Shown: piece by piece, positions 1,105 through 25,100 of the stretch
How the letters are laid out: every line of letters begins with the position of its first letter
How positions within the stretch are numbered: position 1 is the stretch's first letter
Source: a virus
Taxonomy: Duplodnaviria; Caudoviricetes
Virus record (IMG/VR): IMGVR_UViG_3300026255_000001
Span: 17,853-81,852 of that record
Reading direction: 5' to 3' (one strand)
DNA length: 64,000 bases
Notes under the pieces: generated by a model
The model's input: the letters and a program-made list of their open reading frames with translations, nothing else
The model's database searches: none
What the model was told of the DNA's origin: nothing
Translations under genes and position numbers: made by a program

Positions 1105-1137
1105 GGTAGCCGAAGAAGAAAAAAAGGAACGACGACC

Positions 1138-3711: not shown

Positions 3712-3723
3712 GGAGATACGACC

Positions 3724-4770: not shown

Positions 4771-4779
4771 GAGACTACC

Positions 4780-7134
4780 ATGAGCGACCCATTCAACAGC
4801 TTGATGACGACCGGCGCCGCGAACGCGGTTGGCGGCATGGCCAATCTTTTCGCCGGATCGCAGGCGATGCAACTGCAGGCGAACGCCGGCGCGCAGAACG
4901 CGAACGCCGGGCTCATGCAGTATATGATGTACCAGGACGCCCTGTCCGCCAAGAACCGCGAACAGTCCAGGCAGTTCGACATCCAGACGCGCGAGCGGTC
5001 CGATCTGATCGCGGCGAAGCGCGAGGAGTCCGCGTTTGCGCGGCTCAATGCGACGCTGGATTCGCAGCTCAAGCGCGCCGAGATTGAATCCCGCGACCGC
5101 CAGCTGGCATTCGAGAACACACTCAAGCTGCAGCAGAACGACCTGCAGATGAAGATTCAGACCATGCAGGTCGAGCGGATGGAGGGCGTCATGGACGCCG
5201 AGGCGCTGCGCGGCGAGCTGGCCAGCATATCCGTAGACGCGGCCGAACTCAACGGGCTTGATTTGGCCGACCGGTTGGTGAGCGTGAAGAACAAGCACAA
5301 ACGCGGCATGGCCCACCTGGAGAGTTCAGGAACCCCGATCGGGCAGACCATCGCCGGTATGGTCACGGCGGCCAAGCAGATGAAGCTCGATATTCCCGTG
5401 CTCGACGACGATCTGCTCGGCGACTCGTTTACTGTCGAGGCCGCGCAGAAAGCGATTGAAGACATGGATCTTGCGGCGGGCAGGGTGAAGGCGGACGACA
5501 AGCAGGTGCTCGGGTACGTCAAAAACCAAATGCTGAGCAAGTACGCCGACGACGACGCCATGTCTGCGCGGATTGGCGATTATATCGCGGCGCACGGGAT
5601 CAAAGGGTCCAAGTTGGCGACCCTGGATGCGGCCGGCAAGACGCGACTCGGGATGCTGGCCGCCCTGGAGGACATGGAGGCCAAGGAGGGCGCTCTCCAG
5701 CCGCACTACGCCAAGATCAAGGAGCAGCTGTCCGATCCAGTCGGCGCCGCGCACTTCGATACGCTGTATCGAGCGGGCGTGCTCGAGCCCATCAAGGACA
5801 AGGCCACGCTGTCCAAGCTGCAGATGCTCCACCAGCACAATTTCCAGACGCAGGTCGCCAACATGCAGGCGGCCGCGGACCGCGGGTTCAACTATTTCGG
5901 GCCTGAGCTGAAAGAAGCCCGGGAGCGCGCCGAGGAACAGTTCCAGGAAGCGCGGATGGAGATCATGGCCGGCGGGCGCCCCGACGCCGTGTGGGCGTTG
6001 TCCGGGGGCGTCGACTCGTTCGACTCCTTCCGCGAAGGCGTGCTGACCGACATCAAGAAGACCGACGAGTTCAAGCGCGTGACCGGCGGGGACATCATGG
6101 ACTTTGCGCTTGAGGTGTCCGGTTTGGCCGGCGCCGGGCGTACGGTGGCCAACGTATTCACTGGACGCTGGGACAAGCTGTCGGTTGGCGATGCCGTTGA
6201 CCTGGCGCTAACCTCCGCTGCTTTGTTTTCTGGCGGCGCAACTTTGTGGGGCCGGGGGTTACTCGGCGCCTCTAAGGGGGTGAAAGCGACGATGCTCGGG
6301 GCCAAGGTGGCTAAAGGCGGAGGGGTTCTTGGTGGGCTTGGCAGAGGGGCTATCTATGTCCCAAAAGCTATTGTAAGGAAGACGGGTCTCGGTACTCGCG
6401 GGATGCAGTTGTGGGCCGCCAAGGGATCTACCGGAGCCGATGCTGTTCGGCGGGCCTCTAATGCTATCGCACCGGCTAAACGGTGGTTGGCTAAACAGAC
6501 AGTTGCGGCAGGGTCCGCTGGGATGCAAGTTCCAGGGAGAGTGTCCGCTGCGTTGTCGAATTTGGCTGGTAAAGAGGCGGCTCTCTCCGCCGCTAGGACG
6601 CTTCGCGGCGGAGAAGTTGCGGCGAACATCGCTGCCGCCGGTTGGGCTGGCGGCAGAGCCGCGGATATGGCTATTGGACGGGCGAGCGAAGGCTACGAGC
6701 GCGGGCAGTCAGGCCCGCGACTTAGCTTCGGCCAGTTCCACGAAGCCGCGGACGACTTAGAGGAGAAGTTCCAGACGCTGCGGATGATGGGCGACAAGAT
6801 GCGCGGCAAGCAGCTCGAGGCCATGACGACTGAGTTCGTCAGCTCCTTCGAGAATTTCAAGCGCGTGGCGGGCAACTACTACAGCGACGGGCGGGTTCCC
6901 TTCCAAATCGAGGAGCGCTACCTGCAGCTCAGTCGGCTGCTCCCGCCTTTGGTGGCGAACAAGATCAACCGCCGCATCCGCGACGGGGAGTCCGGAGTCC
7001 AGCCTCAGAGCTTCTCGTCGTTCGAGGAGATGATGGCGCTGCCTGCGCGCGGCGGAGGCATGTCCATGCCTGTCGCTGCGCCTGCCGGCGGAGCCAGCGG
7101 ACTCCCAGGTTTCGAAGCCGACGAGACTCCTTGA
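4780..7134 (+). CDS. Putative internal virion/ejection protein, 784 aa, with a Gly/Ala-rich membrane-active segment
   Basis: GGAG RBS, N-terminal coiled coil, hydrophobic Gly/Ala stretch (about 6100-6700), directly upstream of the giant protein. Confidence 0.65.
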   Translation: MSDPFNSLMTTGAANAVGGMANLFAGSQAMQLQANAGAQNANAGLMQYMMYQDALSAKNREQSRQFDIQTRERSDLIAAKREESAFARLNATLDSQLKRAEIESRDRQLAFENTLKLQQNDLQMKIQTMQVERMEGVMDAEALRGELASISVDAAELNGLDLADRLVSVKNKHKRGMAHLESSGTPIGQTIAGMVTAAKQMKLDIPVLDDDLLGDSFTVEAAQKAIEDMDLAAGRVKADDKQVLGYVKNQMLSKYADDDAMSARIGDYIAAHGIKGSKLATLDAAGKTRLGMLAALEDMEAKEGALQPHYAKIKEQLSDPVGAAHFDTLYRAGVLEPIKDKATLSKLQMLHQHNFQTQVANMQAAADRGFNYFGPELKEARERAEEQFQEARMEIMAGGRPDAVWALSGGVDSFDSFREGVLTDIKKTDEFKRVTGGDIMDFALEVSGLAGAGRTVANVFTGRWDKLSVGDAVDLALTSAALFSGGATLWGRGLLGASKGVKATMLGAKVAKGGGVLGGLGRGAIYVPKAIVRKTGLGTRGMQLWAAKGSTGADAVRRASNAIAPAKRWLAKQTVAAGSAGMQVPGRVSAALSNLAGKEAALSAARTLRGGEVAANIAAAGWAGGRAADMAIGRASEGYERGQSGPRLSFGQFHEAADDLEEKFQTLRMMGDKMRGKQLEAMTTEFVSSFENFKRVAGNYYSDGRVPFQIEERYLQLSRLLPPLVANKINRRIRDGESGVQPQSFSSFEEMMALPARGGGMSMPVAAPAGGASGLPGFEADETP

Positions 7135-7160
7135 CCCCAAGCCTCCCGAAGTGCTAGTCT
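7131..7160 (+). promoter_or_regulatory. Sigma70-like promoter for the giant gene
   Basis: TTGACC (7131-36), 18 nt, TAGTCT (7155-60) with an extended -10 TG. Confidence 0.5.
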
Positions 7161-7189
7161 CAGCTCCACCTTAGGAAGGGAATCGGAGA

Positions 7190-10100
7190 ATGAACGAGTT
7201 CAGGTTTTTGGCGCCCGACGGGCGGTACGGCACGGTGAGCGCCGAGAACTTCTCGAGCGTTTATTCCGCCGGCGGCATCCCCGTGGAGGCCATGCCCGAA
7301 GTCGACGTCATGTCCCCCGACGGCATGCTGTCCACGATCCGCCACGAGAAGGCGTCCGAACTCATCAAGACCCAGGGGTACAAGCTCGCCACGACCCCGC
7401 GCCCCCTGCGCTTCGCGTCCCCCGACGGCCGCACCGGCACGGTCAAGGTCGGCCTGGAATCCGCGGCTCTGAGGCAGGGCGGGACTTTGCTTTTGAAGGA
7501 GCTTGACGTCAACAAGCCGTTGAAGCCGGACCTCCCCCGCGACCCGAAGATCGCCTCCGAGCCCCCGGAGTCCGTGCTCGGCAACTGGTTCGGGCCGGTG
7601 CCGAAGGATCCGACGACCCTCAAGGGTTGGGATTCCTACCAGGCGCTGGTTACCAAGAACAAGAAGGGGAAGGCCGGATTCTGGGAGGGCATTACCCCGA
7701 ACATGACGAACGTGCCATTCCTCGGCACCGCGCTCGCCGCGGTCGACGCCGGCAAGGCGGCCTTGACCGCGCAGCGGCTCAAGGAGGGCAAGCCGACTTC
7801 CGACCAGGATGTTCTGGACCTCAACATGTTCATTGCCAAGCAGGAGCGCGAATCCAACGCCACGATGCTCGGCAAGGCCGGCAACGTCGTGATCGACATG
7901 ACGACTTTCATGGCCGAAATCGCGGGGTCGATCAAGGGATTTCTGGTGCCGTTGAAGCCCTGGTTGGCCGCCAAGGCTTCGGCCAAGGCCGGCGGCGCCG
8001 CCGTAGGCAAGCTGTCCGTCGGATTGTCCAGAAAGATTTTGAAGGAGAGCGGCGAAGAGTGGGCCAAGAACCTCGTGGCCAAGAAGGTTGCCGCCGAGGC
8101 CGGCGAAGAGGTCGCCGAATATCTGGCGAAGCACGGGGGCCGGCGCGTCGCTGCGAAACTGCTCGGGCAGCTCCCCGAGATCGGCGTCGCCACGATCGCC
8201 CCGACAATCGGCCAGATCGTCCCCCAGTTGGCAGCCACGAAGATGTCTGGGCAGGACGCCGGAACCTACCGTGGCAACGTCGACAAGACCTTCGCTGCGC
8301 TCATGGGCGAGGACATGGAGAATTCCGCGGCCATCTGGCGCTCAGTCGCCGACACCACGATCGAGAACTGGTCGGAGGCCATGGGTGAAACCATAATGGC
8401 AGGCATGTCCAAGCTCCCCATCGTCGGCGGCCTCGGGCAGGCCATCCGGCGCAACGCCAATGCGTTCGTGGAGAAGCTCGGCAAGGCCGGAACGGCGGAA
8501 GGCTTCCAGGCCGTGGACCGCATAGCGGGCATGGCGGCGTTGTCCAGGTGGTTGTATGGGCGCGCCAAGAAGGGCGGCTCGTTTCGGATGATGATGGACG
8601 ACCTGCACGCCGTGGGTTACGATGGGGTCTTCGGCGAAATGATGGAGGAGCGCGCGGGCGACTGGATGCGTGGCCTGTTCGGGCTCGAAGGCGATGCCGA
8701 CGAGAACGCCATCAAGCGCGCCTTCAAGAACTCCTTGCCCGACCCCGAGCAGCTCGGCGTCGAACTGATCGCCTTCTCCATCCCCGCGTTGGCGGTCGGC
8801 GGGTTGCGGTTCGCGGCGGTCTCGCCGAACATGGACGGGTATTTCCGTCGTCGTGAGGCGCTCGAGGGCCTGGCGACCCTGCACAAGAACCGCAAGCCGT
8901 GGGAAGACGGCAGCTTTACTTCCGGCGACGCCGAGGCCAGCAAACCCATCGTCAAGGACATCATTCGCGAGCATGAAGCCTATCAGCGCGACTCCACTGG
9001 CTGGATGAAGTATTTCAACTCTATGTTTGACGGGCTTCTGAGCATGAAGGTCGTCGACGGCGCCGTGGTTGTCAACCCGGACGTCAAGTACAAGAACACG
9101 ATGTCCATGATGATCGGTACCTACGGCGGCCTGGCGCGTACCGCGTACCTGGATAACCTCGGGCGCAAGCCGACCGAGGAAGACCTGGACAAGGCCCTGG
9201 ACATTGGCGCCGAGCACGCTATGCGCCAGATGGCCCGCCAGGGCGGTTTCATTTGGCTGTACGACAGCACGCTCAGGACGACCGATGGCGTGCCTTCCGC
9301 CGAGGCAGGCGTCACGACGGAGCAGGAGGCGCTCAAGTATCTGTCCAAGGCGCAGCTGCAGGCGCTGCGCGACGCCGACTTGCTGACCATCGACGACTTC
9401 GGCAAGATTTTCATGCTGGATCCACGCAGCTACGACACGGACCAGCACGAGCTCTTGGCCCATGCGTTCGAGCTCGGCACGGCGCGTCAGGTTCTGGAGG
9501 ACAAGAAGTCGAGCGAGAAAGATCGCGAGGAGGCCAGGAAGCAAGAGGCGGAGGCCCTGGAGAAGATCGGCAAGATCGCGCCGGGCGTCGGGCCGCTGAG
9601 CGTCGCGGGGGCCCACAGGCGCGCCGCCGAAGCCGTCGCCCGCCTGATGACGCTGACCCCCGAGGAGGCCCGGGACGTCACGCTGCAACAAAACATCCGC
9701 TTCGAAAGCGCCCTGGACCTTGATGAGCCGGCGGACGAGGCCGCTCTGGCCGAAGCCGAGGCCAAGGGAGAATATGCCCTGCTGTTTGAACTGTACCGCA
9801 AGCACCAGCGTTTCAATGCCTATGTGAATCTGGAGCTGGACGCCGATCCGCTCCCCGGGTCCCTGAACGAGTTGCTGCTGCGCGCCACGGTGTCCCCGGA
9901 TTCCATGTCTCCCGAGGAGAAGGTCCGCGCAGCTTCGTTCCTAACCGGCTACCCCGACGCCACTCGCCTCGACGAGGCGACGTCCGTCGCGCGCCGGGTC
10001 CACAAGATGGTACAGGAGGGCGAAATCGCTTTCCGGGGAGACAGGATCGTGCGCTCCGGCGACGGGCAGAAGTTCGTCGTGCTCTCGCCCTTCCGGGACG

Positions 10101-13100
10101 AGAAGACCAGGAAGTCGATGTACCGAGTGGCCCCGCTGTCGGAGACCGGCACGCCGCTGGAGTCGGAGGCCACGTTCATTTCCGCCGAGGAGCTCAAGGC
10201 CAAGTACCAAAACGAGACGAAGACCGGCGTGTCAATCTCCAAGTTCTCCCGGGTCCAGGGCTCGCTGGAATCCATGGTGCCGTTTCTCCACAAGGCGGGT
10301 TACCTCGGCTCCTGGGTGCGGAGCAACCGGCGAGACGGCGAGTCGGTCGAGCAGACGCTCGCCCGCATGACGAGCCGGGACCTGACCGGCCTTGGGCTGG
10401 TGAAAGCGATGAAGGGCGCCTCCGGGAAAGAGTTTTTCTACTACGACGTCGGCGCCCGTTCGCTGTTTTATGGGGCCCTGGGCAAGCGCACCCGCGGCGT
10501 GGCCTACAATCCCATGCAGATGGCGGACATGGCCGGGGCGCATTTCTCGGAGGACTTCACCGAGGTGCCGATGCTGCAGCTGGCGGCGGATGCGCTCGGG
10601 CAGAACCAGACGGCGGACCGGCTGCGCGCGGCGCTGCCCGTCCTGGCCGCCGCGATTTCCAGGGCCCAGAAGGAAGCCGAGCACGTCCTTGTGCAGGCGG
10701 CCAAGAACTCCAAGACGTCCTCTGAGCGCGCCAAGGCGGTCGAGGACCTGGCCACCCTGCGCAAGCTGCCGAGCGTGGACTCGTCCGACGTGCTCAACGT
10801 CGTCGAGGCTATGAGCAAAACCGTGAGGCACTATGTCCACGGGTACAAGGATTTCCCCCGCCTGCGGCAGCTGGTTCTCGGGGACGCCGTGGAGGCGCTG
10901 TACGACAATTCCAGCCTATCGCATGACCTCCCCGCCATCCGCGCAGAGCTTGAGACGGTGGCGTCGAAGGAATACTGGGACGCACTGCGCTACGACGGGG
11001 CGATTGAGTCGGCCGACGAGGGTCCGGCGGACGGGGAAGCCGGAAAGACCGGCGACAAACCCCCGCCCCTGCCCCCTCCGGCCGACGGCGGCGCGGAAGA
11101 GGGTGCGCCCCCGGCCGAAGACGGGCCGGCCGGCCCTTCCGTTCCCGCTGACTCGTTGCTCGACGACCTGACCGCGCAGGAAGTAAACGACGCCTTGTTC
11201 GGAGAGTCCGCCGCCGTGCCACGGCCCGACCCGGCCCCCGGGGACGCTCCGGAATCCATCAAACTCTCCGGTGATGCGGACGACGACGCCCGCGCGCTCG
11301 ACCCTGATCTCGTCAAGAACCCCGACGCCCTGGCGGACCGCCTCGTGCGCTTCCGTCCCGGCATGGTGCGGCGCATCGGCGCGCTGAAGGCGATCGGCAA
11401 GGACCTGATGGACAGCGGCTTGCTGTCCCTGCAGGCGGCGAACGACATGCTGCTGGGCTACATGGCCTCCTCGCTGCGGCTGTCCAAACCCGAAGCGTTC
11501 GACGTGCTGCTCGCGCTGCGCTGGAATCCCGGCGCCAAGGCGCTCGCCGAAACCGCTCCCACGGAAGCCGAGATGGAGGCCGAGCTGACGGGCTCCCTCG
11601 CGGAAGCCCTCGGGCTGTCCAGTGACGCCGAAGTGCCGATGTCGTCGGACAAGCTAGCGGGGTCGGGCAACGCGGACATGATGGACTCCAAGCTGAAGGA
11701 GGTGACGGACGTCGTGCGCGTCGTCCTCGACGCCGCCATGGGCTACGCCCCCGTCGCCGAGATCGGCCGGGCGATCCGCAAGTCGGCGCCTGGCGGCAGG
11801 CCGCTTGGGACCCGCAACCTGCCCGCCTGGCTCATGTCCAAGGAGGCGTTCGGCGAATGGGCCGCCGAGCGCAAGGCCAACATGCGCCGGTACTCGGACA
11901 ACTTCGCCGAGCTGCGTCTCTCCCGGCCGCTGGACGCTGCCGAGATCATGTTCAACAGCGTGGTCGCCAGCCTGCCGTGGGAGCACGCGCTGCAGATCTA
12001 CAAGGCCGCCCAGAACACCTTCCCCCGCGAAGTCCGCGAGGTCAGGCCCAATGACGGCTACGGCACATACTTCGAGGCGTTGCTGCCTCCGGACGAGGCG
12101 GGCGTCCAGCACGACGCGGTCCGGGGAGCGACTGTCGCGGAGGTCGAGCAGAACGTCGCGGCGCTGATCAAGCTGGGGATGTACCGGGGCCAGGTCTCCG
12201 CCGAGGAGCTGGCCGAGCTGGTTCACGAAACCGGCAACGGGTCAACGATGGCGACCCTGAACGACGCGGCTCCCCGCATGGCGGCGGAGCAGGCCAGCCA
12301 GCTGCGCCGGCGGCTGAGGCCCGAAGAGTATTTCAGCGACGCCAATGCGGAGCTCCGCGCCGCCGTTGAGCGCGTGGCCTCCATGATCGACTCCAAGCGC
12401 GGGACTTTCGGCCGAGCCGGGGCTTTCTACAAGGACCAAGGCGGAAACACGGTAAGCCGGTTCGGGTACCTGTTGAACGAAGGCGCCGACGCCAGCAGTA
12501 AATGGCATAGTCCGTGGAAGAAGCAGTTGCTGGAGGACGTGCTCGAGGTTGTCTCCCGTCTGCTGACTGGCTCCAATAGTCCGGCGCTCGTCGCGCAACT
12601 GAAGAAGGACCTGGTCCTGAACGAAGGCAAAGCGGTCCGGAAGTCCCTGCAGAACCTCTGGGAACAGCTGATCGAGCCGCTGGCGGCCCTGGAGCGCGAG
12701 CGCACGTCGTCCTCTGGCGCGGAGGCCCAACGGCAGACCCTGGCGGCGAGGGGGCTCAACGCGCTGGTGGAGGGCACGGCCGAAAACCCCGGAGTCTTCT
12801 ACAAGGCGTTCGGACTGGCCTACGGCGGCAACGAGCTGGAGGCGTTCGCCTACATGCGCGACCGCAAGGACTTCTTCCAGACCAATGACAAGTACCTGTC
12901 CAAGCTGCTCGGCCAGTTCGCCGTCCGCAACGTCGTGACGCCCGTTGGGCGCGCCACGGGGGGCAAGGCGTTCTCGGGGTACCGGGCGAGGAGCCCGCAA
13001 GCCGAGGCCGCCGAGCGCCTGGCGGACCGCCGCGGCGACCTGCGCCCGGCCGTGCTGGTATCCGAGGCGGCGGGGATGGATTCCATCGAAGGCTCCGAGA

Positions 13101-16100
13101 TGTCTTCGGCCCAGATGTACGATGCGCTCCGTGGAGTCGCGCGGGGAGCGTTCGCGCGGTTGCGCAAGGGCGAGCCCGGCGAAGTGTTCCTGCCGATGAC
13201 GCTGTCCGGCGACAAGCTGGAGCTCAATGGCGTCGTGTGGACGATCAGCGGCGAGACCCGGATTCTCGGGGGCAAGCGGTTCGAGGACTACGGGGAGAAG
13301 GATTTCGACGCGTTCTACAACGACATCTACTTCGGGGACAAAGACAATATCGGTGCCCACGAGCAGTTCACGATCGACTTGATCCATGAGATTGCCCCCG
13401 GCATCCTGGATCCCGGCGGGCAGTTCAGCCTGTATCGCAAGGCGAAGGACGGGAAGCTGGAGAGCAAGAGCCCGGCGGAGATCGGCAAGATCATCCAGGA
13501 CGTACTGAAGAGGTTCTCGCAGATCGGGACCCCGATCGTCGACGGCATCTTCGGGCCTCCGGGCTACCTGCAGACCGCCGAGGACGGCGCGGTCGAATAC
13601 GTCGTCGCGCTCAAGGCGGACGGCAACCCGTACAAGGGCCCCGGCGACGGGTTGCTCTGGGTCATGCCCTGGCTCCGCGACGCCGCGAAGAAGACCTACG
13701 GCGGCGCCGAGAAGCAGGCATCCTACAAGCTGGGCAACTGGGGGCCCACGGACCGCGGCGTCCTGAGCCAGACGAAGGGCGCCGTCGCCATTGACCCCAA
13801 CCGGTTCGAGCGCCTCGACCAGTCCGAGCCGGGCGCCCTGACGCCGGCCGAGCTCGAGGACGTGCTGTCCGACGAGTCTTTCCGCAGGCAGCTGCCGGAA
13901 GCCGTGTTTCTCGCCACCGGCAACGCCCAGAAGATGGGCCCCGGCAGGTTCGATCGTGTCGTGGAAGTCGTCCGCGGCAGCAAGACCTACAAGTTTGGCG
14001 TCTTCCGCGCCGCCCCGCTGGGCATCACTTCCACCATGCCCACGGACACCACGCTCCAGGAGCGCTGGGTCGGCATGCAGCCGGTCGCCGGCGGGGCCGG
14101 AATCCTGAACGTCCCCGGGGGCACCCTGGATGCCCGCGCCGACTTCTACCGCGTGTTCATGGACGAACTGTATTCCGGGGCGGAGTCCCGCATCCGCAAA
14201 GCGCTGGAACGCCCCGACGCGGTCCTGTTCGAGGGGGACAACCGGCGGCCGATGCTGAACGCCCTGGCCAAGGAGGGCGGGTGGCTTGGCGGCTCGCTGG
14301 CCGCCATGCAGACCCTGTTTGCCAAGCTGCGCGGGGCGGTCAACGCCGCCAAGAAGAAAGGCCACGCCAAGCTGGTGTCGCCGATCCAGAGCACCGGAGC
14401 CGCCCGCGAGGACGGAACCCTGGCGCCCGCCACGGATGGTCCGCTGGAATACGACGACTCCGCCCGGCTGCATCCGTCCGGGGGCCAGATCGTGCGTGGC
14501 ATGGCCAAGCCCTCCTCGTTGTCCGACCACCATCGGCTGGCGAACGGCGGATTGACGATGCCCGGCATGGGGCTCGGGCTGGAGGACATAGGCGAGGCCG
14601 ACCTGAAGCGCGCGGCGAAGCATTACGAGAAGCTGTTCGGGCGCCGGAACATCCCGGCGAACGAAAAGGAGCTCGGAGCCGCTGCCCACGAGCTCATGAC
14701 CGAGCTCGTCGGAATGGCTCCCGGGACCTCCGATTTCAACAAGACCCGCGCGATCCTCCGGGCCCTGCTGGCGCCGGTGCGATCGCGGTCGGAGTTCATC
14801 CCGCTGGATGGCAGCACGGTGTTCGGGCGCTCGCTGGAGGATGCCAAGAAGGTTGTCGCCCACCTGCAGGCGAAACACCACCTGTTGTACGATCTCGCCA
14901 GGATCAAATTGGAAGGCGGCAAGGGCCAGTTCGACGTCGAATACGAGCAGGGTCGCCTGTCTGGATACACCGGAGAAGGCGTGAACCTCGACGACTTCGT
15001 CGTCCACTCCTCCGAGGACGGGCAAACCGTAATTGGGTTCCGCATCCCCGGCATCCCGCTGCTGGTCCACCGTTCTCCGGCGCTCGGCCATCTGCAGTCC
15101 ATGCGCGTGATCCGGCTGACGGAGCTCACGAAGGACGCGGCGGCGATCTTCTACCACCAGGACACCCTGACGAAGGAAGGCGCGGACGAAGATGGCGACC
15201 AGTCCCATGTGTTCCCCCTGCCACCGATGTCCCTGCTCGCCCTGCACAAGAGCTTCGAGTTCCTGCGCGACAACGAATTCGAAGTCGGGGCCAGCGCCAG
15301 GCCGGATAGGTTCAGCGACGCCTATCCGAAGGATCTCCGGGATTCCTGGCTCGCCTCGCTCGTGCCCGAGAATCTCGAGCGGATCACGGACCCCCGCGTC
15401 ATGGCCCTCTCTCGGGACGCCAACCTGGCCGGATCCACGGCCATCGGCACCGCGGCGTCCATGCTGACGGCGGCGGAACTGATGTTCGCAGACATGGTGC
15501 TGGACAAGGATGTCCCAGGGCTGCGCGACACCTCTGCCGCAGACCCGTACGTCGCCGTCCGGTTCGCCGTCCTCCACGACATGGTCAACCGCATCGTGGA
15601 CGCGGGCAAGGTCCCACACATGATGAAGGGGATGATGCTCTACCAGCAGTTTGTCCCGGTATTCGTGGCAGCCGCCGTCGGCAGTGAAGTCCCGTTCGTC
15701 GAAGGGCTGGAAGGACAGGAGCTCTACGATCACGTCCACAAGCACACCGTGCAGGAAGTGACGGAGTGGCTCACGGACTCCGAGCGGGGACGGCGCCTTG
15801 CGGACAACGTCCTGGTTGGCGGGATGACTCTCGGCAAGGCGTTCCGGGCCACGTACGGCAAGAAGGCGAAAGAAATGCAGCCCAAGATCGCCGCCCTGCT
15901 GGCGCTGAGCGACGACATGACGACGCTCTCGACGGTTGTTCGCGCGATCCACAAGTTCAAGCCGACGAGTTTCGGCGACATGGTTTCCCTGCTCGAGAAG
16001 ATCGACTCCGTCCTGGACGGCCGGCTCAAGACCCTTCCCGCACCTACCAATCTCCCGGCCAACCGGCCGCTCCGCGTCGTGCTGGATTCCATCATCTCCC

Positions 16101-19100
16101 CGTTCCGCCCCGTCCTGGAGGAGCTGATCGGGAAGGTGAAGCAGGACGTTCTGGCCCATCCAACGGGGGCGCTGGAGGCCGCGCGGGCCGAGCAGCTGCT
16201 GGCAAACCCGCGCACGAAGGCCCTGGTCCGGAAGCAGCCCAGCGTGGACGGAGAATCGTTTGACTACGAGTGGACGGCGGCGGGGCTGTCAAAGCTCTGG
16301 GATCTGCAGCTCGACCTGCACCAGCGGCTGGCGACGGCCACGCTCAGGGCCAGGGAACTGGCCATGCACGCCGAATTCGCCGACATGCCGGTAGAGGAAC
16401 TCGCGGAAGAGGGGTTGCGCGGAACCGTGGACCCCGGGGCCGCGCCGCAGTATCATGTCTTCGACAGCGTCGTGCGGCAGCGCGCCGAGTTGCGGGCTAC
16501 GCCGGAGTACGCGGACAACGTCGTGCTGTCCGCTCTGGAGCTGTCGGTTACGATGCCGGAAGCCGTGGGCGAGGCGCAGGAACGGGCCGCCAAGCAAGCC
16601 CGTGCGCCAAGAATCCGTGTCGGAGTGACGGACAGCTTCAGCGTCGCCGAGGCCCGCCGCGACTGGGCCAAACTGCCCCCCGCGCTGCAGATCGACATCT
16701 TCGACCTGATCGCGCGATTCAACGGGCTGCACCGCTCGGAGAGCCGCCTGTACGATCTCGTTCCCCCGGCGTTTATGAAAGAGGTCTTCGCTCTCGAGCG
16801 CCAGATCGCCGCCGGCTTCCGGGACGGTTCGATCAACATCGACGCCGTGCGCCCGCTCAAGAGCGGAATAACGCTGCGGGGCATGCTCGACTTCGCCCGC
16901 GAGTCCTATCTGACAGGGGCCGCCGGGGCCACGATCGAGGTGCCGGCAGGCAAGCGCGTTCCTTATGACGGCGCGGGCAGCTACCTGCGCTTCGCGCCGT
17001 TCGTCTCGGGCTGGGAAGCCGCGCCGTATTACGGTGCGCCGGCTATCCCCGAGCTGCTCGGCGAAAACGCCGGCGAGGTCGGCCTTCCGGCTCCGGCGCC
17101 CATCCGCCCCGCTCCGGCGCCGGCGCCTGCCGCGCCTAAGTCGGTCAAGGACGTTGCCGTCAAGGCCCAGTCTCCAAGCAAGTACCGCACGAAGGAGCTG
17201 GCCAAGGCGGCTGCCTCAAACAAGGTGGCGGCACTGACCGATGCCGCGATCACGGATGAGTCCTACGCCAAGCGCCTTGGCCTCGCTGCGCAGGCCGCGG
17301 GCATCCTGGTGTCCGACGCGTCCCAGGTCAAAGAAGGCGACGTCGTCTACGTCTCCATGCCGGGCCGCGGGCGAGGAGCCAGCGTCGCGCAGATCAACGG
17401 CTTCATCGACTCCGTTGTCGGGATGGTGAACGCCGGTGCAGCCGTCGTCACGGACAACGGAGAGAACGCCAAGCGCATGCACAACATCGGCGCGGAAGGC
17501 GTCCTGCGCGAGCGTCTCCTGAAGGAGGGGTTTCAGGAGACCGAGAACAAGAAGTTTGGCTACAGCCTTTGGCGCAAGGGCGCCGTTACTCTGGAGACGC
17601 CATCCCTCCTCGGCGAGGCGAAGCCGCGGCAGCTGGAGTTGCAGCTGGGGCAGTCGATCGCCCCCGACAGCGACGCCGGCGCGCCCTACGACCTGAACGA
17701 GCGCGAAGCCGCCGACCTGCGCAAGGCGTACGGACTCGTCCAGGGAGAGATCGTCCGGGCGGAGGCCATCATGGAAGCCGCGATCGCGCGGGCCCACGAA
17801 GCCAAGATGGAGGGCTCCGCCGAGGCGCTCAAGGCCCTGCGTGAAATGACGGCTTCCGGGCTCGGCCTCGTCGTGTCCTCCGTCGTGCCGTACGCCGCGG
17901 ACGAGAACCTCGGAACCAAGAAGTCGATCTGGGGCGGGTACGACCCGGACAACAACCTGGTCACCCTGTCCCCGAAGCTGGTGCGCCACCTGGAAAACCC
18001 GGCCGGCGGCCTGAACTGGTTCGACAAGACCCTGTTCCACGAGCTCGCCCACGCCGGCATGTACCATCTCGTCGGGAAGAACGACCTGCGCTTCCGGCTC
18101 CTGCTGGACCAGGCGCGCAACGAGGCGGCGCGGCGCGGGATCGACAAGAAAGAATGGGACAACGACTACTACGGGCTGACGAACACGCAGGAGTTCGCGG
18201 CAGAGGCGCTGTCCAATCCCGCCTTCCGCTCGTTCCTGGCGTCCATTCCGGCCGTCGGCATCCTGACCGCGCCGGAGAAGTCCGCCAGCCTCTGGGACGC
18301 CGTGCGCCGCCAGATCGCCCGCGTCCTGGCGTCCTTCGCGAAGCGGTTCCCCGGCATCAAGCACTCCCTGCTGGAGCAGGCGTTCGACGAGATCATGCAG
18401 TGGGACGCGGAGGACGCCTTGTCGGCCCGCGCGGACGCGTATGCCAGGCGCGCAGCCGAAAGCCTGCCGCCGGAGGAAAGCCCGACGGAGTTCGAGAGCT
18501 GGGAAGCGGCGGCCGCGGACGCCGCCGCCCGGTTCAAGCTGGAGTGGAACGGGTCCTTCGAGGCGTCCAAGAACTGGAACGTGGTCGGATCGGAGAAGGA
18601 CCCGCTGGCCTACAATGCGGTCAACGCGGACAACTCGCTGCTGGTGGAGGTCTCCGGAACGAGAGGCGGGGCGAAGTGGACCGCGTACGCCGGACCCGGA
18701 TACTCCGTCGCGCAGTCGGAGAAGCCGGAGGGGCGCAAATGGCCCGAAAGCGTAGATCTGTCTTATGCCCGCAAAGCGAGGCAGGGCGAGCTGGACTTCG
18801 GGCAGTCGATCGCGACACCGGAGTTGAATCCGGTAGTTCGCGGGCTCGAGTCGGCGTTCAACAAGCTCGGCTTCTCGTTCAAGGACGCGCGGGATTCGGA
18901 CGTGTACGGCGCGCTTCAAGTTGCGAGCCGCGTAATAGCGGACCCGAAGAACGAGGTCGCCCATATCTCGCAGGCCGCGACGGCGCTGTCGTACCTGGCG
19001 TTCCCCAGAATCGTCGGGGTCGAGAGGGACGTCAGATCGCGCGCGGATCTGGAAAACATCCTCCGCTCCGAGCTGTTCGACAGGTATGAAGAGGCTGGAG

Positions 19101-22100
19101 GAACCGTCCCGGCGTCCACGTTCGCCCGCGTATGGTCGGAGATGAAACGGATCGTAAGGGACTTGGCGCACTGGTTCCAGGCGAAGCAGGCGGACATCGA
19201 ATCCATGCTCGACTCGGTTCTGTCCGGCGATCTGGAGACCGCGTTCGGGAAAGACGTTCTTGTCCCTCCCGCAGGAATGGAACAGGTAAACCTGCAAGAA
19301 CAGCTGGACAGGTCTCCGGAGGCGAAATCTATCTTGGCCTCGCTGCTGGATTCCGAAATCGCGTTCGAGCTGTCCGGAAGCGTAGCCTACGCCCCGCAGA
19401 TTCCGGTGTTCCGAAACAAGGGCACAACGGCCCACGACCTGGACCTTATTTTCCATCCAGACAATTCCTACGGGGCCTTCGCCTACCTGTTGCAGGAGTT
19501 CCCGAACGCGGAGATGATCTACGCGTTTCCGTCGGGTCGCGGGGGCTATGCGGCCGGATTGGCCATTCCTCCGGCGGGCAGAAAAATATCTGGCGTAATC
19601 GACAGGACGGGCCGCCGGAAAGACGGGCCGGACTCCGCGAGAGTGGAGCGCGGATTCGACGTCTTGGACGAAACCGGGTCCGTTGTAGGGAGTTTCAGGT
19701 TGACTTCGCTGTTTTCCGGAAAGACGACGGAGACCTGGGAGGGCGAGAAGGCGGTTATCGTCGACATCATTCCTGATTTCAGGGTGCGAAAGGAAGGGGC
19801 CGCAGAGCGTACAACTCCGCTCCGGGTCGGCGACTCCGTTCTCGACCTTCCGATCAGCGCCCACGAAGCCGGCATGGAAAAGAAGCTGGAACTTCTGCGC
19901 ATCAAGGATTTGAAGGATCTGGGCCGCAGCGCGTGGGCGCTCGGAAAGCAGCAGGCTGTCGGCCAATCCGCGGACGCCCCGGTGGAAGTTCTAGCGCTGA
20001 ATGCTGTGGGGCAGTCCATCGCGGCAGAAGCCGAAGCCGCCCTCGACCCCCTGGCCCGCTCGATGAAGCGCGCCGAGGAGCTGAAGAAGCTGCACGCCAA
20101 GCGCGTGTCAAAGCCGATGCCAGATAGCTGGGTTTCATATGAGGCATCCGCCGTTTTCACCCGACAACCGGACGGGTCATGGCTGATGGAAAATGAGGAC
20201 GAGGGGCTTAAACAGGTCGTGTCTGCAGCAGCCGTTCAAATGGCTTGGGGCGAACAGGAGGAGTTTGACATTTCCGGGTCTTTAGATTTTGTTGCCGTCG
20301 CCCAGTCTGTGGAGCGCTGGAAGCAGGAGCAGGGCATCGTCTATGACCCGAAGGAAGCGCACGCCGTCGGCGAAGCCTTCTACCACGACGTCGGGGCGTT
20401 CAACCACGAGGCCCCGGGCCTCCTCGGAAAGATCGCCTCCGTCCTCCTCGCCCAGCAGCGCAAGCTCCGCCGGGGCGAGCGCGACTGGTGGAAGGACACC
20501 GAGAACCAGCTGGTGGTGAGCGGGTACACGGCCAAGACCGACCCGTCCTTCGGAAGGCATAACGGAATTCCGACTTCGTTCTTCACGACGGAGGGACCCG
20601 AAGGACCTCTCTCCGGAGAGGTACGCTACAACAAAGATTTGGCCCGCTGGGAGAAGCGCGCCGGCGGAGCCTGGGCCGCCATATCGGAAGCGGAAGCCAA
20701 GAGCGACTATGAAACCGGCACCGCCGGCATCGACATGGCTCCGACGTCCGGGGCGTCCGTCCGTCCCGGCCGCGGCATGCGCTTCGTCATCAACCCGTCC
20801 CCCCGCGACATCGTCTGGGCGGCCGTAGGCGACGTGTACTCAGGGACCGTCAGAAAATGGGTCGCATACCCTGCCAGAAAGATAGCCGTCGACCCCAAGG
20901 CCCCAAGCGCCGACAAGCTCGGGCTGCTGGCCGACTCGGTCGCCACGGCCATCCAGGGCCGCCGGCCGCAGAACTACAACGAGATCGGGGTCAGGCTGAG
21001 ACTTGGGAACTTCTATATCGAGTCCGAGACCGAAGCCCTCCCCGCCGAGCTCCGCCGCCTCAACGAGCTGCTGAAGAAGGCATACACGATCGTCCACGGG
21101 TCCCTGGATCCGATGGCGGAGAAGCGGCGGGACATGAGCGGGCAGTCTATCTCCGCAGAAGAAGCCTTCCCCGCAGCACCCGAAGGCATGCGCTCGACCC
21201 GCATGGCCCCCGACGGCAAGCCCGACCCGGACTACGATCTCGCCGATCCGGCGTCGAAGGTGAACCGTTCGGCCGTCCAGATTCCGGCCGTTGAACAAAC
21301 CGAGGCCCCGGCAGAAGACAGGAAGATTGCGTCTGTCATTGACAAGGTCGGCCGCCGCGCAGACGGGCCAAACGCCCCTCGCGTCACCCGCGGATTCGAC
21401 GTGGTCGACGAGACCGGCAGCGTCGTCGGAAGTTTCCGCCTGGAGTCACTGTTCTCCGGCAAGACGACGGAGACCTGGGAAGGCGAGAAGGCCGTCATCG
21501 TCGACATCATCCCGGACTTCCGGGTGCGCATAGACGGCGCGCCAGCGCTCACGGCCCCGTTAAAAATAGGGGACCAGACGCTTGCCCTCCCGATCTCCTC
21601 CCACGAAGCCGGGATGGAAAAGAAACTCGAGCTCCTTCGCATCAAGGATCTGAAGGACCTCGGTCGCAGCGCGTGGGCCATGGGACAACGGAGGATCGAA
21701 GGCGAGTCCGCCGCTGTCTCCCTCGACAACCCGCCAGAAGTCCAGACCGAAGCCTGGCGCATGGCGGTCGCGTACCCCAAGACAGGCAAGACCAAGGAGT
21801 CCTTTGCGCTGCGCATGGGCGTCGACGGCAATCCTGATCCGGCCTGGGATCTTGGAGACCCCGAGTCCGAGGTCAACCGGACCCGGCGCACCATTCTCCC
21901 CGAAGAACTGTCCGAGGCCCCGCTGCCCTCCGACGTCGAAGCCGCGCTGGACGACGCCCTCGGACTCATGAACGTACTGCTTTACCGCCGCCCGTTGCCG
22001 GACGGCAGTGGCGCCCCGGCGGCCGTGTTTGAAGACGGAGTTGTGTTCGCCGAGAAGCCCGAAGCCATTGGTCCGGCTGTCGCCGCGCTCACCACGAAGA

Positions 22101-25100
22101 TCGTCGGCGAAAACCTGCCGGCGCTCAATGCCGTTCTTGACCCCGCCATCGCCCAAGCGCTACACCAAACAGCACGCAAGTATGCGGGGCGGCGCGCCTC
22201 GGCCTCGGTCGAAGCCGAAATCGTCCTGCGGCTGGCGGGGTCATCTTCTTCCTTGTTCACGTCGCCACACGTCTGGCCGGCGGCGCTGGCCGCGGACATG
22301 GCGGACATGCTGATCCACCATCCGACGGAGCTGCTGAAGCGCAGCCGCGTCGAGATGGTCGACGGCGTGCCGCAGCTGGTCTCCGCGGGGTCCGACCGCG
22401 AGCTGGTCTCCCGTGGACGCGAGCTGTCGCCGAACGACTCCGCGAGCTGGGAACGGATGATCGAGTCCGACCGCGTGCCGGAGAAGCTCCGCGCCAAGCT
22501 CGGCGGGCTTACAGACGCCCACGAGGCGATCGAAGCCGTCGTCGAGGCCGTCGACGCCGGCCGCATCAAGGATCCCGACTACGACAAGGTGGAAAGCGCG
22601 CTCGTTCGTTCCGCCGCCGAGAATCTGCGGGTCCGTCCTGTTTCCGGCGAGCCCGGCGAAATGGCCCGACGTGAGCTGGCCTCCGGCATGTCCATGTCGT
22701 CGATCTACTACCACGACCCGGGTACCCGGATCGCGGCGCTGCAGGGCATGGGGATCCCGGGGCAGCACCTGGCCTTCTACGAGATGATGAACCAACACAC
22801 GGCGTCATGGAACAACGGCGCGCACTGGCTAAACACCAAGGCCAAGGTCTTGCCTTACGAAACCGCCACGCTGTACCGCTTGTTCACGGACAAGGAAGGC
22901 TACCGGAGGGAAGACGCGAAGGTCCATACCCACCTGACCCTGTCCCAGCGGCAGGCCGAGAAGCGGTTCGAAGCCGCCGTCACGGCGATCATGGAACACG
23001 CCCACAAGTTCGACCTGTCGAACCCGGCCATGCGCGAGGCCTTGCTCGATCTTCCCGGGACGGTAGTGTACGGGAAGAACCAGGCAGCCTACCGACGAGG
23101 CTCCGACGAGCGGGCCGGCACTTTGCCGGAGCGGGAGACCATCCGGGAGGCGCTGTCCCACTTCAACGCCGAGCTGCGCGGGCTGCTGCTGGACCCCGAA
23201 AAGGGAGGGCGCACGGAGGCCGAGATCGACCCGTTCCTTCTGGCGGAAGAGGCGAAGGCGCAATACGAAAAGGACTTCAAGGCTCTCAACGACGCCGCGT
23301 TCGAGTCCCTGGACGGCCGGGAATACCTGCGGTTCCGAGAAGGATACGCCGGAATGCACCTATACTCCTACGGACGCGGGGCCGGAATGGATCCAGCCGG
23401 CGACCAGGCGCTCGCCGACATCTTCGACCATGTGAAGCACGCAGATACCTCTCTGTCCTTCATGAAGCGCCCGGACGGCCGGGAAGATCCGTCCCTGAAG
23501 CTCTCGCATAAGGACGGAATTCCGGCATGGACCGAACTGCAGCAAAAGATCCTGGGCGAGCAGAGCCCGGAGCGGCTGCGCCGCGCGCTGAAGCGCGGTC
23601 GCGCGCCGAACGTCGTTGAGGCCAACCGCCTGATCGTGGACGCCATCCAGGAGAATCTCTACGCCGTTGCGGCCGAGTATCACGCGAAGCACGGGGCGCA
23701 AGCCGGCGCATGGAAGCCGAGCGAAGCGGAGAAGAAGCAGATCGCCACGGTCAAGCAGCTGCGCGACGTCCTGGCCAGGTTCAAGTTCGTCGAGACGGCC
23801 CCGGCCGAGTTCTCCCGCGAGCTGGAGACGTTCGCCGAAGCGTACGAGAAGAAAGGACTTGTCCCGAAGTCGATGAGTTTCCTGACCCTGCGAGGCGAAT
23901 ACATCGACCGCGTCCACACGGCGGCATCGCACAAGTCCATCCTAAATTCGTACCTGCTGATCACGAACCCAGACGGCGCTCCGACCATCATGGCGAAGCC
24001 CGCCGCAGACGCGTCCCTGGAGCGCGGAGCCATCACGCGGGATACGTGGATAAAGTACGGGGACAATCTCGCCCGCCACTTCAAGGACAAGTTCAACCGC
24101 CACGCGGCCGACGTTCCCGTGATCGACCCCGTCACCAAGAAGGTGCTGTTCACGACTCCCGGAATCATCGCCGAGATCCGCCGCCTGTACGACGCCCACG
24201 CCGACAAGGACGGGCAGTTCACCAGCCCGCGCATGTCGAGCGTGGAAGCCTGGAGCGCAACGGACAAGGACGCCGGGCGACTGGTCAAAATGCTGGTGCA
24301 GGTGTCCCCGACGGAAGTCTATCCGTGGGCGTCGGCCATCCAGAGGATGCTGGCGTGGACGAAAACCATGTCGTTCGGGTGGTCGTTCTTCTTTCAGACG
24401 GCGCTCGGCGAATCCAGCATTGGCATGAGCGGACCGTTCAAGGGCAACCTTGCTCTGACGTTCCTTACACGGCCTTTCCTTAAATCCAGCCGGGAAAACT
24501 GGGCGAAGTTCTGGGGGAACGTCCGGGCGTTCCGCGAGCACCGCCGCTACTACAATCCGGCGGTTGCCGACAGGCTAGACTTCATGCTCCGCATGGGGTT
24601 GACCACCGGGCGCACGGCCGCCCTGGAGCCGTACGCTGACGTGTTTAGGAAAGACGTCCATAAAATCGGAGCCGGGTTCAGGGAAAAGCATGGCGACCAT
24701 GTGGCGCGCCTGTGGGAAACGTTCTGGTTCGGCGCCGACAAGACGGACCAGAGCTGGGCGCGGTTCTGGCCTGGCGTCACTGGCCGGAAAATGTCCGACT
24801 GGATGTTCGACTGGTTCTCCGCAGTCAAGGAGGCCCAGATGGATTTGGCCGTCAAGAAGCTCGCGCTCGACCACGGCCTGAATCCGGATGGCCGGGCTTC
24901 GTGGAGCCAGGCCCGATTCCTAGCCAAATACTTCGATGACGGGATGGGCGGCCAAAATTGGTATCGGTACCTTTGGGCCACGCCGAAGTGGATGTTCGGG
25001 CTGACCTTGGGGCTGTTGGCCCCCAACTGGACCTTGTCAAGCTGGAACACGTCGGGCCTCGCGCCCATCACGCAAGCGCTGTTCAAAAACTATCCGGCGC

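What the first reader, a model, noticed from the sequence alone, without database searches (positions are those of the whole stretch)
17648..21715. G(Q/E)S(I/A)(A/S) linker motif divides the giant protein into roughly 380-aa cassettes, one holding a zincin
Seen: GQSIA at aa 3487, 3871 and 4274; GQSAD at 4258; GQSIS at 4651; GESAA at 4838 and 1338. Spacings are 384, 387, 377 and 187 aa. The first two are preceded by RQxELxx. The intervals hold the zincin, the NTase, an unknown domain and the NTase half-copy. Inference: either cleavage sites of a self-processing polyprotein (embedded HELAH protease) or recombination joints for swapping effector domains.
Basis: partly seen in the sequence, partly recalled or inferred. 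Interest (0 to 1): 0.72.

Follow-up and report, generated by a model that had tools for sequence, protein, structure and literature searches.

The report
Junction peptide in giant phage protein
A 6,303-residue injected protein of an uncultured 82-kb phage carries a string of swappable enzyme modules, each bounded by the short peptide Gly-Gln/Glu-Ser-Ile/Ala-Ala, which is probably a cutting signal, although no cutting has been shown and the built-in zinc protease is not clearly the cutter.

Summary
All seven motif copies are at the stated residues. GQSI occurs 4 times (0.03 expected), and all five GQS tripeptides lie in aa 3487-4651.

The motifs lie 4-12 residues outside independently defined domain edges, in low-confidence AlphaFold segments. 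The intervals hold:
- an anthrax-lethal-factor-like zincin, also found in solved podophage ejection proteins;
- a MenT/LnuA-like nucleotidyltransferase;
- a conserved unknown domain;
- a catalytically dead half-copy of the nucleotidyltransferase.

Three related lineages carry unrelated sequence inside the block. All keep GQSIA at the left edge (where known) and G(Q/E)SA at the right edge, next to the conserved framework. So the motif is a selected junction peptide of a variable cargo array.

Cleavage is the most likely function (about 0.45) but is untested. Relatives that lack any zincin keep the motifs, so self-processing by the embedded HELAH protease is weakened. The protein has no cysteine, which excludes cysteine proteases.

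The idea that phage "polyvalent" proteins are cut apart dates from 2017 (PMC5512222). This scan has already noted analogous junction peptides, with different sequences, in other phage giant proteins. This is a new lineage-specific variant of a known kind.

The parts
7190..26101 (+). Giant ORF of 6303 aa (P0001) with no cysteine; a virion or ejection 'polyvalent' protein.
   Evidence: It is the fifth of five consecutive Cys-free proteins. The genome is a complete 81.8-kb virus record with terminal repeats.
11201..11215 (+). GESAA at aa 1338, just after a second variable site (aa ~1320).
   Evidence: P0002 has a 225-aa insert there and P0113 a 355-aa insert. The motif reads PQSAA in both.
17561..17584 (+). 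Last conserved framework residues before the array (YSLWRKGA, aa 3458-3465).
   Evidence: Identity with P0002 stops here. A diverged linker follows.
17648..17662 (+). GQSIA at aa 3487, the left edge of the cargo array.
   Evidence: conserved as GQSIA in P0002 and P0113. pLDDT is below 50.
17663..18799 (+). Module 1, aa 3492-3870. The zincin core is aa ~3575-3771.
   Evidence: HMM hit on aa 3575-3771. AlphaFold core pLDDT is about 90.
18038..18052 (+). HELAH (H3617, E3618, H3621). Y3661 and E3668 complete the lethal-factor-type site.
   Evidence: The profile aligns HExxH...YG.TN..EF.AEAF with anthrax lethal factor (E 1e-4).
18800..18814 (+). GQSIA at aa 3871, preceded by RQGELDF.
   Evidence: Homologues of module 2 begin to align at NPxV, aa 3880. 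pLDDT is below 50 in both models.
18815..19960 (+). Module 2, aa 3876-4257. A helical N-terminal part is followed by a Pol-beta-type nucleotidyltransferase core (aa ~4030-4245; G4063, S4064, D4083, D4085).
   Evidence: TM1012 Z 10.2, MenT1 9.4, LnuA 9.3, ANT(2'') 8.8.
19961..19975 (+). GQSAD at aa 4258, 12 aa after the conserved end of the NTase domain.
   Evidence: 28 HSP ends at aa 4230-4250. pLDDT is below 50.
20009..20023 (+). GQSIA at aa 4274, a lineage-specific copy at the N-terminal edge of module 3.
20024..21139 (+). Module 3, aa 4279-4650. A conserved domain of unknown fold, shared with P0003-P0007.
   Evidence: No Pfam, PHROG or Atlas match.
21140..21154 (+). GQSIS at aa 4651, 8 aa after the conserved domain end VHGSLDP.
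   Evidence: 25 HSP ends at aa 4630-4650.
21155..21307 (+). Diverged copy of the start of the C-terminal framework. The match is aa 4671-4721 against aa 4875-4925 (45% identity) and runs on into the next part.
   Evidence: repeat D6.
21308..21700 (+). Half-copy of the NTase C-terminal part. aa 4707-4851 matches aa 4127-4267 at 73% aa and 74-76% nt identity. It lacks the catalytic GS...DxD.
   Evidence: repeats D1, D2. The DNA repeat ends inside the motif.
21701..21715 (+). GESAA at aa 4838, the right edge of the cargo array.
   Evidence: It reads GQSAV in P0002 and P0113 and GQSAA in P0108, each after unrelated sequence.
21719..21781 (+). Start of the conserved C-terminal framework (SLDNPPEVQTEAWRMAVAYPK).
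   Evidence: Identity to P0002 is 88% and to P0108 85% from here on.

Best explanation
The giant gene encodes a virion-packaged, injected 'polyvalent' protein. It has a conserved chassis: an N-terminal domain, a two-barrel RNA polymerase region, and a Trp-rich, hydrophobic C-terminal domain. Between aa 3487 and 4838 it carries a variable array of cargo modules.

Each module is separated from the next by a short disordered linker that contains G-(Q/E)-S-(I/A)-(A/S).

Shown here:
- The peptide sits at the true domain edges.
- It is conserved at the peptide level at both ends of the array, in lineages whose arrays hold unrelated modules.
- It occurs nowhere else in the phage.

Inferred:
- The peptide is a protease recognition site. 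After ejection, or inside the head, the chain would be cut into separate proteins: the zincin, the nucleotidyltransferase, the unknown domain, and the chassis parts.
- Keeping one junction peptide lets newly acquired modules be released by the same protease.
- The protease is not identified. The lethal-factor-like zincin of module 1 is the obvious candidate. It is not required for the motif to persist, so a protease acting in trans (phage or host) is equally possible.
For: - Positions and statistics.
- Domain edges defined independently by about 100 homologues coincide with the motifs.
- Stand-alone homologues of module 2 (P0028, P0029, P0010) begin and end within a few residues of the motif-bounded interval.
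- Motif residues lie in segments with pLDDT below 50 in two independent AlphaFold models.
- At the left junction the linker has diverged between P0001 and P0002 while GQSIA is 5/5 identical. What follows is not significantly similar (52 of 500 shuffles reach the score).
- At the right junction three alleles (NTase remnant; a 107-aa segment; a module homologous to P0085 1287-1492, E 3e-12) all end in G(Q/E)SA(A/V), followed by SLDNPPEVQTEAW.
- GQSIA 4274 is present in this lineage but absent from the aligned position in distant homologues, which looks like a gain.
- Codons differ among copies (GGG/GGC, CAG/CAA, TCG/TCC/TCT, GCC/GCG).
- The zincin has the full lethal-factor catalytic signature.
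- Ejection context: five consecutive proteins totalling 8,657 aa have no Cys. The zincin family matches solved internal virion or ejection proteins at E 1e-15 to 8e-9.
- Precedent for the idea: PMC5512222.
Against: - No cleavage has been observed. The phage is uncultured.
- P0002 and P0113 lack any zincin or HExxH yet keep the motifs.
- None of about 100 distant module homologues, nor 66 other zincin-bearing giant ORFs, shows this motif or any comparably recurrent 4-mer.
- Modules at the second variable site (aa ~1320) are joined by Pro/Ala-rich linkers without the motif on their upstream side.
- N4 virion RNA polymerase, also a zincin-bearing polyvalent protein, is packaged unprocessed (PMC5512222).
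- Low pLDDT at the motifs may partly reflect poor alignment depth outside the domain cores.
- Only three close lineages are available.
Confidence: 0.45

Rival explanations
1. The motif is a constant joint without cleavage. It is part of a standard linker that travels with modules, or is retained at insertion points, and marks where modules are exchanged. The protein works as one chain.
For: - Homology breakpoints among relatives fall at the motif-bounded edges.
- The DNA repeat of the NTase half-copy ends inside the motif (repeat D2).
- Linkers 1 and 2 share 76% identity over 37 nt, including 14 identical nt, so they may be paralogous (repeat D4).
- The motif persists without a zincin.
- N4 vRNAP is unprocessed.
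Against: - 15 nt with synonymous differences cannot drive homologous recombination. The conserved framework on either side is a far better homology arm.
- The 5' breakpoint of the duplication lies inside the NTase domain, not at a motif.
- Modules at aa ~1320 are inserted without an upstream motif.
- The peptide is conserved while the adjacent linker residues diverge. That needs selection on the peptide itself.
Confidence: 0.28
2. The motifs are strict self-processing sites. The module-1 zincin (HELAH) cuts its own chain at them, in cis or between copies.
For: - Complete catalytic set H3617, E3618, H3621, Y3661, E3668, aligned with anthrax lethal factor.
- Fold match: Z 6.7 to the lethal factor catalytic domain.
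- The motif is unique to this protein in the genome.
- The hypothesis comes from PMC5512222.
Against: - P0002 and P0113 keep the motifs with no zincin.
- Other proteins with this zincin family lack the motif.
- The same domain is a building block of podophage ejection proteins (8vb2 gp48, 9sfn_G, 23sg gp10). There part of the EFxAEAF motif is lost, and the PhiM1 paper does not mention a peptidase, protease or cleavage.
- Upstream basic residues, as in lethal-factor substrates, are not consistently present.
Confidence: 0.2
3. The motif is a non-proteolytic short linear motif. It could be a hinge, or a docking or pausing signal used during packaging or during threading of the unfolded chain through the portal and tail channel.
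For: - The motifs lie in disordered linkers.
- The Cys-free ejection context fits.
- Another short linear motif, QGELF, recurs in linkers of related giant proteins without marking homology breakpoints.
Against: No known precedent for such a signal. It does not explain why the motif brackets each module so precisely.
Confidence: 0.12
4. The recurrence is a chance event in a long Ala/Gly/Ser/Gln-containing protein.
For: A few other giant proteins show 4-mers recurring at P about 1e-7. The degenerate motif was defined post hoc.
Against: - 1 of 300 shuffles reaches the GQSI x4 recurrence and 0 of 2000 reach the degenerate count.
- The motifs coincide with independently defined domain edges.
- The motif is conserved in relatives next to diverged linkers.
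Confidence: 0.02

Closest known systems
Phage-type polyvalent proteins with a zincin-like MPTase hub (Iyer, Burroughs, Anand, de Souza, Aravind 2017, PMC5512222)
   Same: A giant late or virion phage protein that combines an RNA polymerase, a lethal-factor-related zincin, a Pol-beta nucleotidyltransferase and unknown domains. That paper already proposes that the zincin cuts the chain into separate units.
   Different: - The paper defines no junction or cleavage peptide; the word 'linker' does not occur in it.
- This zincin family is not matched by any Pfam model.
- The motif survives in relatives without a zincin.
MARTX toxins of Vibrio (effector arrays released by a cysteine protease domain cutting inter-effector linkers; from general knowledge)
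   Same: It works alike in outline: a conserved chassis carries a variable string of effector modules, the modules are exchanged between strains, and they are released at short linker sites.
   Different: - There is no cysteine in 6,303 residues, so no cysteine protease domain is possible.
- There is no sequence relation.
- Delivery is by phage ejection rather than secretion.
- Cleavage is not shown here.
Junction motifs of polymorphic toxins (VENN in CdiA, PxxxxDPxGL in Rhs; from general knowledge)
   Same: A short conserved peptide marks the border between constant and variable parts of a long protein, and alleles differ beyond it.
   Different: Here the motif is repeated between several internal modules and flanks the array on both sides. 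The variable part is internal, not C-terminal.
Prohead-protease processing of head-internal and ejection proteins (T4 gp21 at L/I-x-E; phiKZ gp175 at S/A/G-x-E; from general knowledge and earlier notes e1-5743662, e1-5768974)
   Same: A short consensus peptide punctuates proteins that are packaged in the head and injected.
   Different: No prohead protease was recognised in this genome. The motif occurs in no other protein of the phage, capsid genes included.
Large ejection proteins of podophages: PhiM1 gp48 (8vb2), 'internal virion protein' 9sfn_G, gp10 of 23sg
   Same: The zincin-module family matches them at E 4e-14, 1e-15 and 8e-9, with HExxH retained. The fold match to 8vb2_A is Z 5.7.
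   Different: These are proteins of about 1,250-1,340 aa without a cargo array. The second Glu of EFxAEAF is lost in them. The PhiM1 paper does not mention a peptidase, protease or cleavage.

Membership tests
Polyvalent proteins (PMC5512222) | Several unrelated effector-type domains in one polypeptide of a phage or conjugative element. | tested here: met
   Zincin, Pol-beta NTase and a conserved unknown domain are in one 6303-aa phage ORF.
Polyvalent proteins (PMC5512222) | A zincin-like MPTase related to lethal factor, acting as hub domain. | tested here: met
   Profile match to anthrax lethal factor at E 1e-4, with HExxH and YG.TN..EF.AEAF aligned. VIA-align gives Z 6.7, rmsd 6.5, 145 residues aligned. 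302 viral contigs encode relatives, nearly all inside giant ORFs.
Polyvalent proteins (PMC5512222) | Virion packaging and delivery into the host. | not testable with these tools
   Indirect evidence only: five consecutive proteins with no Cys and homology of the zincin to solved ejection proteins.
Self-processing polyprotein | Cleavage at the recurrent junction peptide. | not testable with these tools
   Needs proteomics or expression. Sequence evidence is only compatible with it.
Self-processing polyprotein | The protease and its sites co-occur in relatives. | tested here: not met
   P0002 and P0113 have the motifs but no zincin or HExxH. Zincin-bearing distant relatives lack the motif.
Peptidase family M34-like zincins (anthrax lethal factor, PPEP) | HExxH plus a downstream Tyr and Glu (YG.TN..EF.AEAF in lethal factor). 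| tested here: met
   H3617, E3618, H3621, Y3661 and E3668 align column for column with lethal factor. PPEP-2 and PPEP-3 match at Z 4.8.
Peptidase family M34-like zincins (anthrax lethal factor, PPEP) | Fold of the catalytic domain. | tested here: inconclusive
   The best matches are lethal factor (Z 6.7) and PhiM1 gp48 (Z 5.7). Both are under the Z 8 level the tool names as common. Foldseek found nothing with E below 0.07.
Pol-beta-superfamily nucleotidyltransferases (MenT/LnuA/ANT(2'')-like minimal NTases) | G-[GS]...D-x-D motif and the NTase fold. | tested here: met
   G4063, S4064, D4083 and D4085 are invariant in 8 sequences. The top six structural matches are all NTases, Z 8.0-10.2.
MARTX-type effector arrays | An autoprocessing cysteine protease domain. 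| tested here: not met
   No cysteine in 6,303 residues.
Prohead-protease substrates | A recognisable prohead protease gene, and the same site in capsid or scaffold proteins. | tested here: inconclusive
   No protease family was found among the head-region ORFs, most of which match nothing. The motif is absent from all other ORFs.

The most novel reading that the evidence does not exclude
The pentapeptide is the cleavage code of the lethal-factor-like zincin, which is itself one of the cargo modules. The injected chain would then dismantle itself in the host into an RNA polymerase chassis, a protease, a MenT-like nucleotidyltransferase and an unknown enzyme. Any module acquired behind a GQSIA becomes releasable. 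This would give the first defined substrate specificity for the zincins of phage polyvalent and ejection proteins, including the unexplained HExxH domain of podophage ejectosome proteins.
Probability: 0.2. Interest if true: 0.72.

Novelty: new variant of a known kind. Interest (0 to 1): 0.5.

Why it matters
Phage polyvalent proteins have been predicted since 2017 to be cut into separate effectors, but no cut site has been defined.

This protein offers six or seven exact candidate sites and a catalytically complete candidate protease. It also offers natural controls: relatives with the sites but without the protease. Together these make the idea directly testable with a recombinant 1,500-residue fragment.

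It also shows that the zincin module belongs to the same family as a domain in solved podophage ejectosome proteins whose role is unexplained.

The gain is limited. The lineage is rare and uncultured, nothing about cleavage is shown, and this scan has already found analogous junction peptides with other sequences in other phage giant proteins.

Tried and rejected
**Searches that found nothing**
- Pfam and PHROGs on the whole giant protein, and Pfam on ten small module homologues: no hit.
- phmmer of four parts of the protein against PDB sequences: nothing useful.
- ESM Atlas for modules 2 and 3: no usable hit.
- Foldseek against PDB for the zincin model: nothing with E below 0.07.

**Looking for more close relatives**
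- Viral, metagenome and genome collections, by peptide patterns and by a back-translated junction pattern: nothing.
- blastn against the phage collection: no match.
- A search for stand-alone zincin homologues of similar length: none.
The DNA of the relatives' contigs could therefore not be read.
- The search for related loci rejected alignment A1 as too long and A4 as not conserved enough.

**Ideas considered and dropped**
- A DNA-level site. The 14-mer occurs essentially only at the in-frame motif copies, and copies differ synonymously.
- A second protease in the chassis. The only other candidate, HELLAH at aa 753, is not conserved in P0002, and no H..EH or GDSGG was found.
- A lethal-factor-like basic cluster upstream of the sites: not consistent.
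- Signal-peptidase-type S-x-A sites: there is no hydrophobic segment upstream.
- Cutting by the phage's JAB peptidase of the ubiquitin-like operon: only a resemblance of x-G before Q/E, not tested.
- QGELF as a general junction signal. It is strongly enriched, but homology breakpoints are not enriched at it (18 observed against 35 expected).
- The Q-F/L-x-P motif of earlier notes: not enriched in my set of giant ORFs.

Full report
**Where it is.** The window is bases 17853-81852 of a complete 81,852-bp virus record with direct terminal repeats. ORF 7190..26101 (+) encodes 6,303 residues (P0001). Neighbours include a family-A DNA polymerase, a DUF2800 exonuclease, a primase/helicase-like protein and tail fibres. 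A large terminase lies upstream of the window. No part of the giant protein matches Pfam or PHROGs.

GQSIA lies at aa 3487, 3871 and 4274, GQSAD at 4258, GQSIS at 4651, and GESAA at 1338 and 4838.
- All five GQS tripeptides of the protein fall between 3487 and 4651, against about one expected for the whole chain.
- GQSI occurs four times against 0.033 expected. A 4-mer recurrence that strong appeared in 1 of 300 shuffles.
- The degenerate motif (0.14 expected, 7 seen) appeared in 0 of 2000 shuffles, though it was defined after the fact.
- The motif is found in no other six-frame ORF of 100 aa or more in the whole genome.

**What the intervals hold.**

*Module 1 (aa 3492-3870).*
- Nineteen homologues from a full-library search share HExxH and YGLTNxxEFxAEAxSNPxF.
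- 302 IMG/VR contigs encode relatives, nearly all inside ORFs longer than 1,400 aa.
- A 70-sequence profile matches solved phage proteins: an 'internal virion protein' (9sfn_G, E 1e-15), the tetrameric ejection protein gp48 of PhiM1 (8vb2_A, E 4e-14) and gp10 of 23sg (E 8e-9).
- The same profile matches anthrax lethal factor (E 1e-4). HExxH and YG.TN..EF.AEAF align column for column. In P0001 these are H3617, E3618, H3621, Y3661 and E3668.
- The AlphaFold core (pLDDT about 90) matches the lethal factor catalytic domain best (Z 6.7), then PhiM1 gp48 (Z 5.7). Both values are modest.

*Module 2 (aa 3876-4257).*
- It has invariant G4063, S4064, D4083 and D4085.
- The six best structural matches of its model are all nucleotidyltransferases: TM1012 Z 10.2, MenT1 9.4, LnuA 9.3, ANT(2'') 8.8, TglT 8.6 and Megavirus poly(A) synthase 8.0.

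*Module 3 (aa 4279-4650).* This is a well conserved domain of unknown fold, shared with P0003-P0007. Those giant proteins also share the N-terminal (aa ~119-544) and C-terminal (aa ~5445-6300) parts of P0001.

*aa 4707-4851.* This is a 73%-identical copy of aa 4127-4267, the C-terminal half of the transferase. It lacks the catalytic residues. aa 4671-4721 is a 45% copy of the framework start at aa 4875-4925.

**The motifs sit at real domain edges.**
- Among 116 HSPs to unrelated giant proteins, 28 end at aa 4230-4250, 25 end at aa 4630-4650, and 13 start at aa 3850-3890. Few HSPs cross a motif.
- Homologues of module 2 start to align at NPxV (aa 3880), and nothing is conserved upstream of the motif.
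- Module 3 ends at VHGSLDP, eight residues before GQSIS.
- Stand-alone proteins of 349-484 aa (P0028, P0029, P0010, P0099) cover part or nearly all of the module 2 interval and end within about 20 residues of its C-terminal motif.
- In both AlphaFold models the motif residues lie in segments with pLDDT below 50. The alignments are thin outside the cores, so this is weaker evidence.

**Relatives.** The close lineages available are P0002 with its variant P0113 (5,263 and 5,393 aa) and the contig that encodes P0108.
- P0002 is collinear with P0001 over aa 1-1326, 1324-3514 and 4836-6301, at 74-88% identity. It replaces the 1,350-residue block by 107 residues.
- At the left edge, framework identity stops at YSLWRKGA. 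The linker has diverged, GQSIA is identical, and the sequence after it is not significantly similar.
- At the right edge, three alleles end in GESAAV, GQSAVAAA or GQSAAAP, followed by the same SLDNPPEVQTEAW. The three alleles are the transferase remnant, the 107-residue segment, and a module homologous to P0085 1287-1492 (E 3e-12).
- GQSIA 4274 is absent from the aligned position in distant homologues that conserve the residues before it. This suggests a gain in this lineage.
- Codons differ between copies.
- The peptide, not the DNA, is therefore conserved.

**Limits on the recombination reading.**
- The 5' end of the internal duplication lies inside the transferase domain.
- A second variable site near aa 1320 takes inserts of 225 aa (P0002) and 355 aa (P0113) between Pro/Ala-rich linkers. 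There is no motif on the upstream side.
- Fifteen nucleotides cannot serve as a homology arm. The flanking framework can.

**Limits on the self-processing reading.**
- P0002 and P0113 have no zincin domain and no HExxH at all, yet keep the motifs.
- About 100 distant module homologues and 66 other zincin-bearing giant ORFs show neither this motif nor any comparably recurrent 4-mer.
- No prohead protease was recognised.
- The chain has no cysteine, which excludes cysteine proteases.

**Context.**
- The five consecutive proteins encoded at 7..26101 total 8,657 residues without one cysteine. Other proteins of the phage have 0.5-2.3%, apart from one Cys-free 412-aa head-region protein. This fits proteins that are threaded out of the capsid.
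- PMC5512222 already proposes that zincins cut polyvalent proteins into units. It also notes that N4 virion polymerase is packaged uncut.
- This scan has noted junction peptides of other sequence in other phage giant proteins. Those are unchecked AI notes that I did not test. One of their motifs, Q-F/L-x-P, is not enriched in my set.

**Verdict.** This is a real, lineage-specific junction peptide that brackets the modules of a variable cargo array in an injected phage protein. A cleavage signal is the most likely function (about 0.45). Cleavage specifically by the embedded zincin has about 0.2. A mere constant joint has about 0.28. It is a new variant of a known kind.

Noticed in passing
window 7-26101 (+): Five consecutive proteins (365, 857, 348, 784 and 6303 aa; 8,657 residues in all) contain no cysteine. 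The polymerase, terminase, fibres and most head proteins of the same phage have 0.5-2.3% (a 412-aa head-region protein also has none). This fits a block of ejected proteins.
   Followed up: partly
loci L022, L027, L036, L048, L054, L068, L071, L078, L079 (giant ORFs, mostly near aa 260-460); window 18779-18799: The pentapeptide QGELF occurs 11 times against 0.3 expected in zincin-bearing giant phage ORFs. It sits as an island in otherwise unconserved acidic or Pro-rich linkers. P0001 has RQGELDF directly before GQSIA 3871. Homology breakpoints are not enriched at these sites (18 against 35 expected).
   Followed up: partly
window 5341-5355 (+), aa 188 of the 784-aa protein: GQTIA, encoded by GGGCAGACCATCGC, lies in the protein just upstream of the giant gene. 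It is the only near-copy of the motif outside the giant protein.
   Followed up: no
window ~11100-11215 (aa ~1300-1342): A second variable site. Relatives carry inserts of 225 aa (P0002) and 355 aa (P0113) between Pro/Ala-rich linkers, just before the position of GESAA 1338 (PQSAA in those relatives).
   Followed up: partly
window 17912-18502; PDB 8vb2_A, 9sfn_G, 23sg_S: The zincin family is homologous to a domain of solved podophage ejection or internal virion proteins that retain HExxH. The PhiM1 ejectosome paper (PMC11440229) does not mention a peptidase, protease or cleavage.
   Followed up: partly
window 20024-21139: Module 3 is a strongly conserved domain (motifs such as IVYDPxEAYxxGEGFYHDIGAFN and NYNELGVRLRLGNFYIE). 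It is shared by giant proteins with the same C-terminal domain, has no Pfam, PDB-sequence or Atlas match, and is absent from the close relative P0002.
   Followed up: partly
The giant protein does not share this tag.
   Followed up: no
window 15041-15220 (aa 2618-2677): The stretch LLVHRSPALGHLQSMRVIRL...GADEDGDQ resembles the RxP...DxDGD signature of two-barrel RNA polymerases. It is invariant between P0001 and P0002.
   Followed up: no
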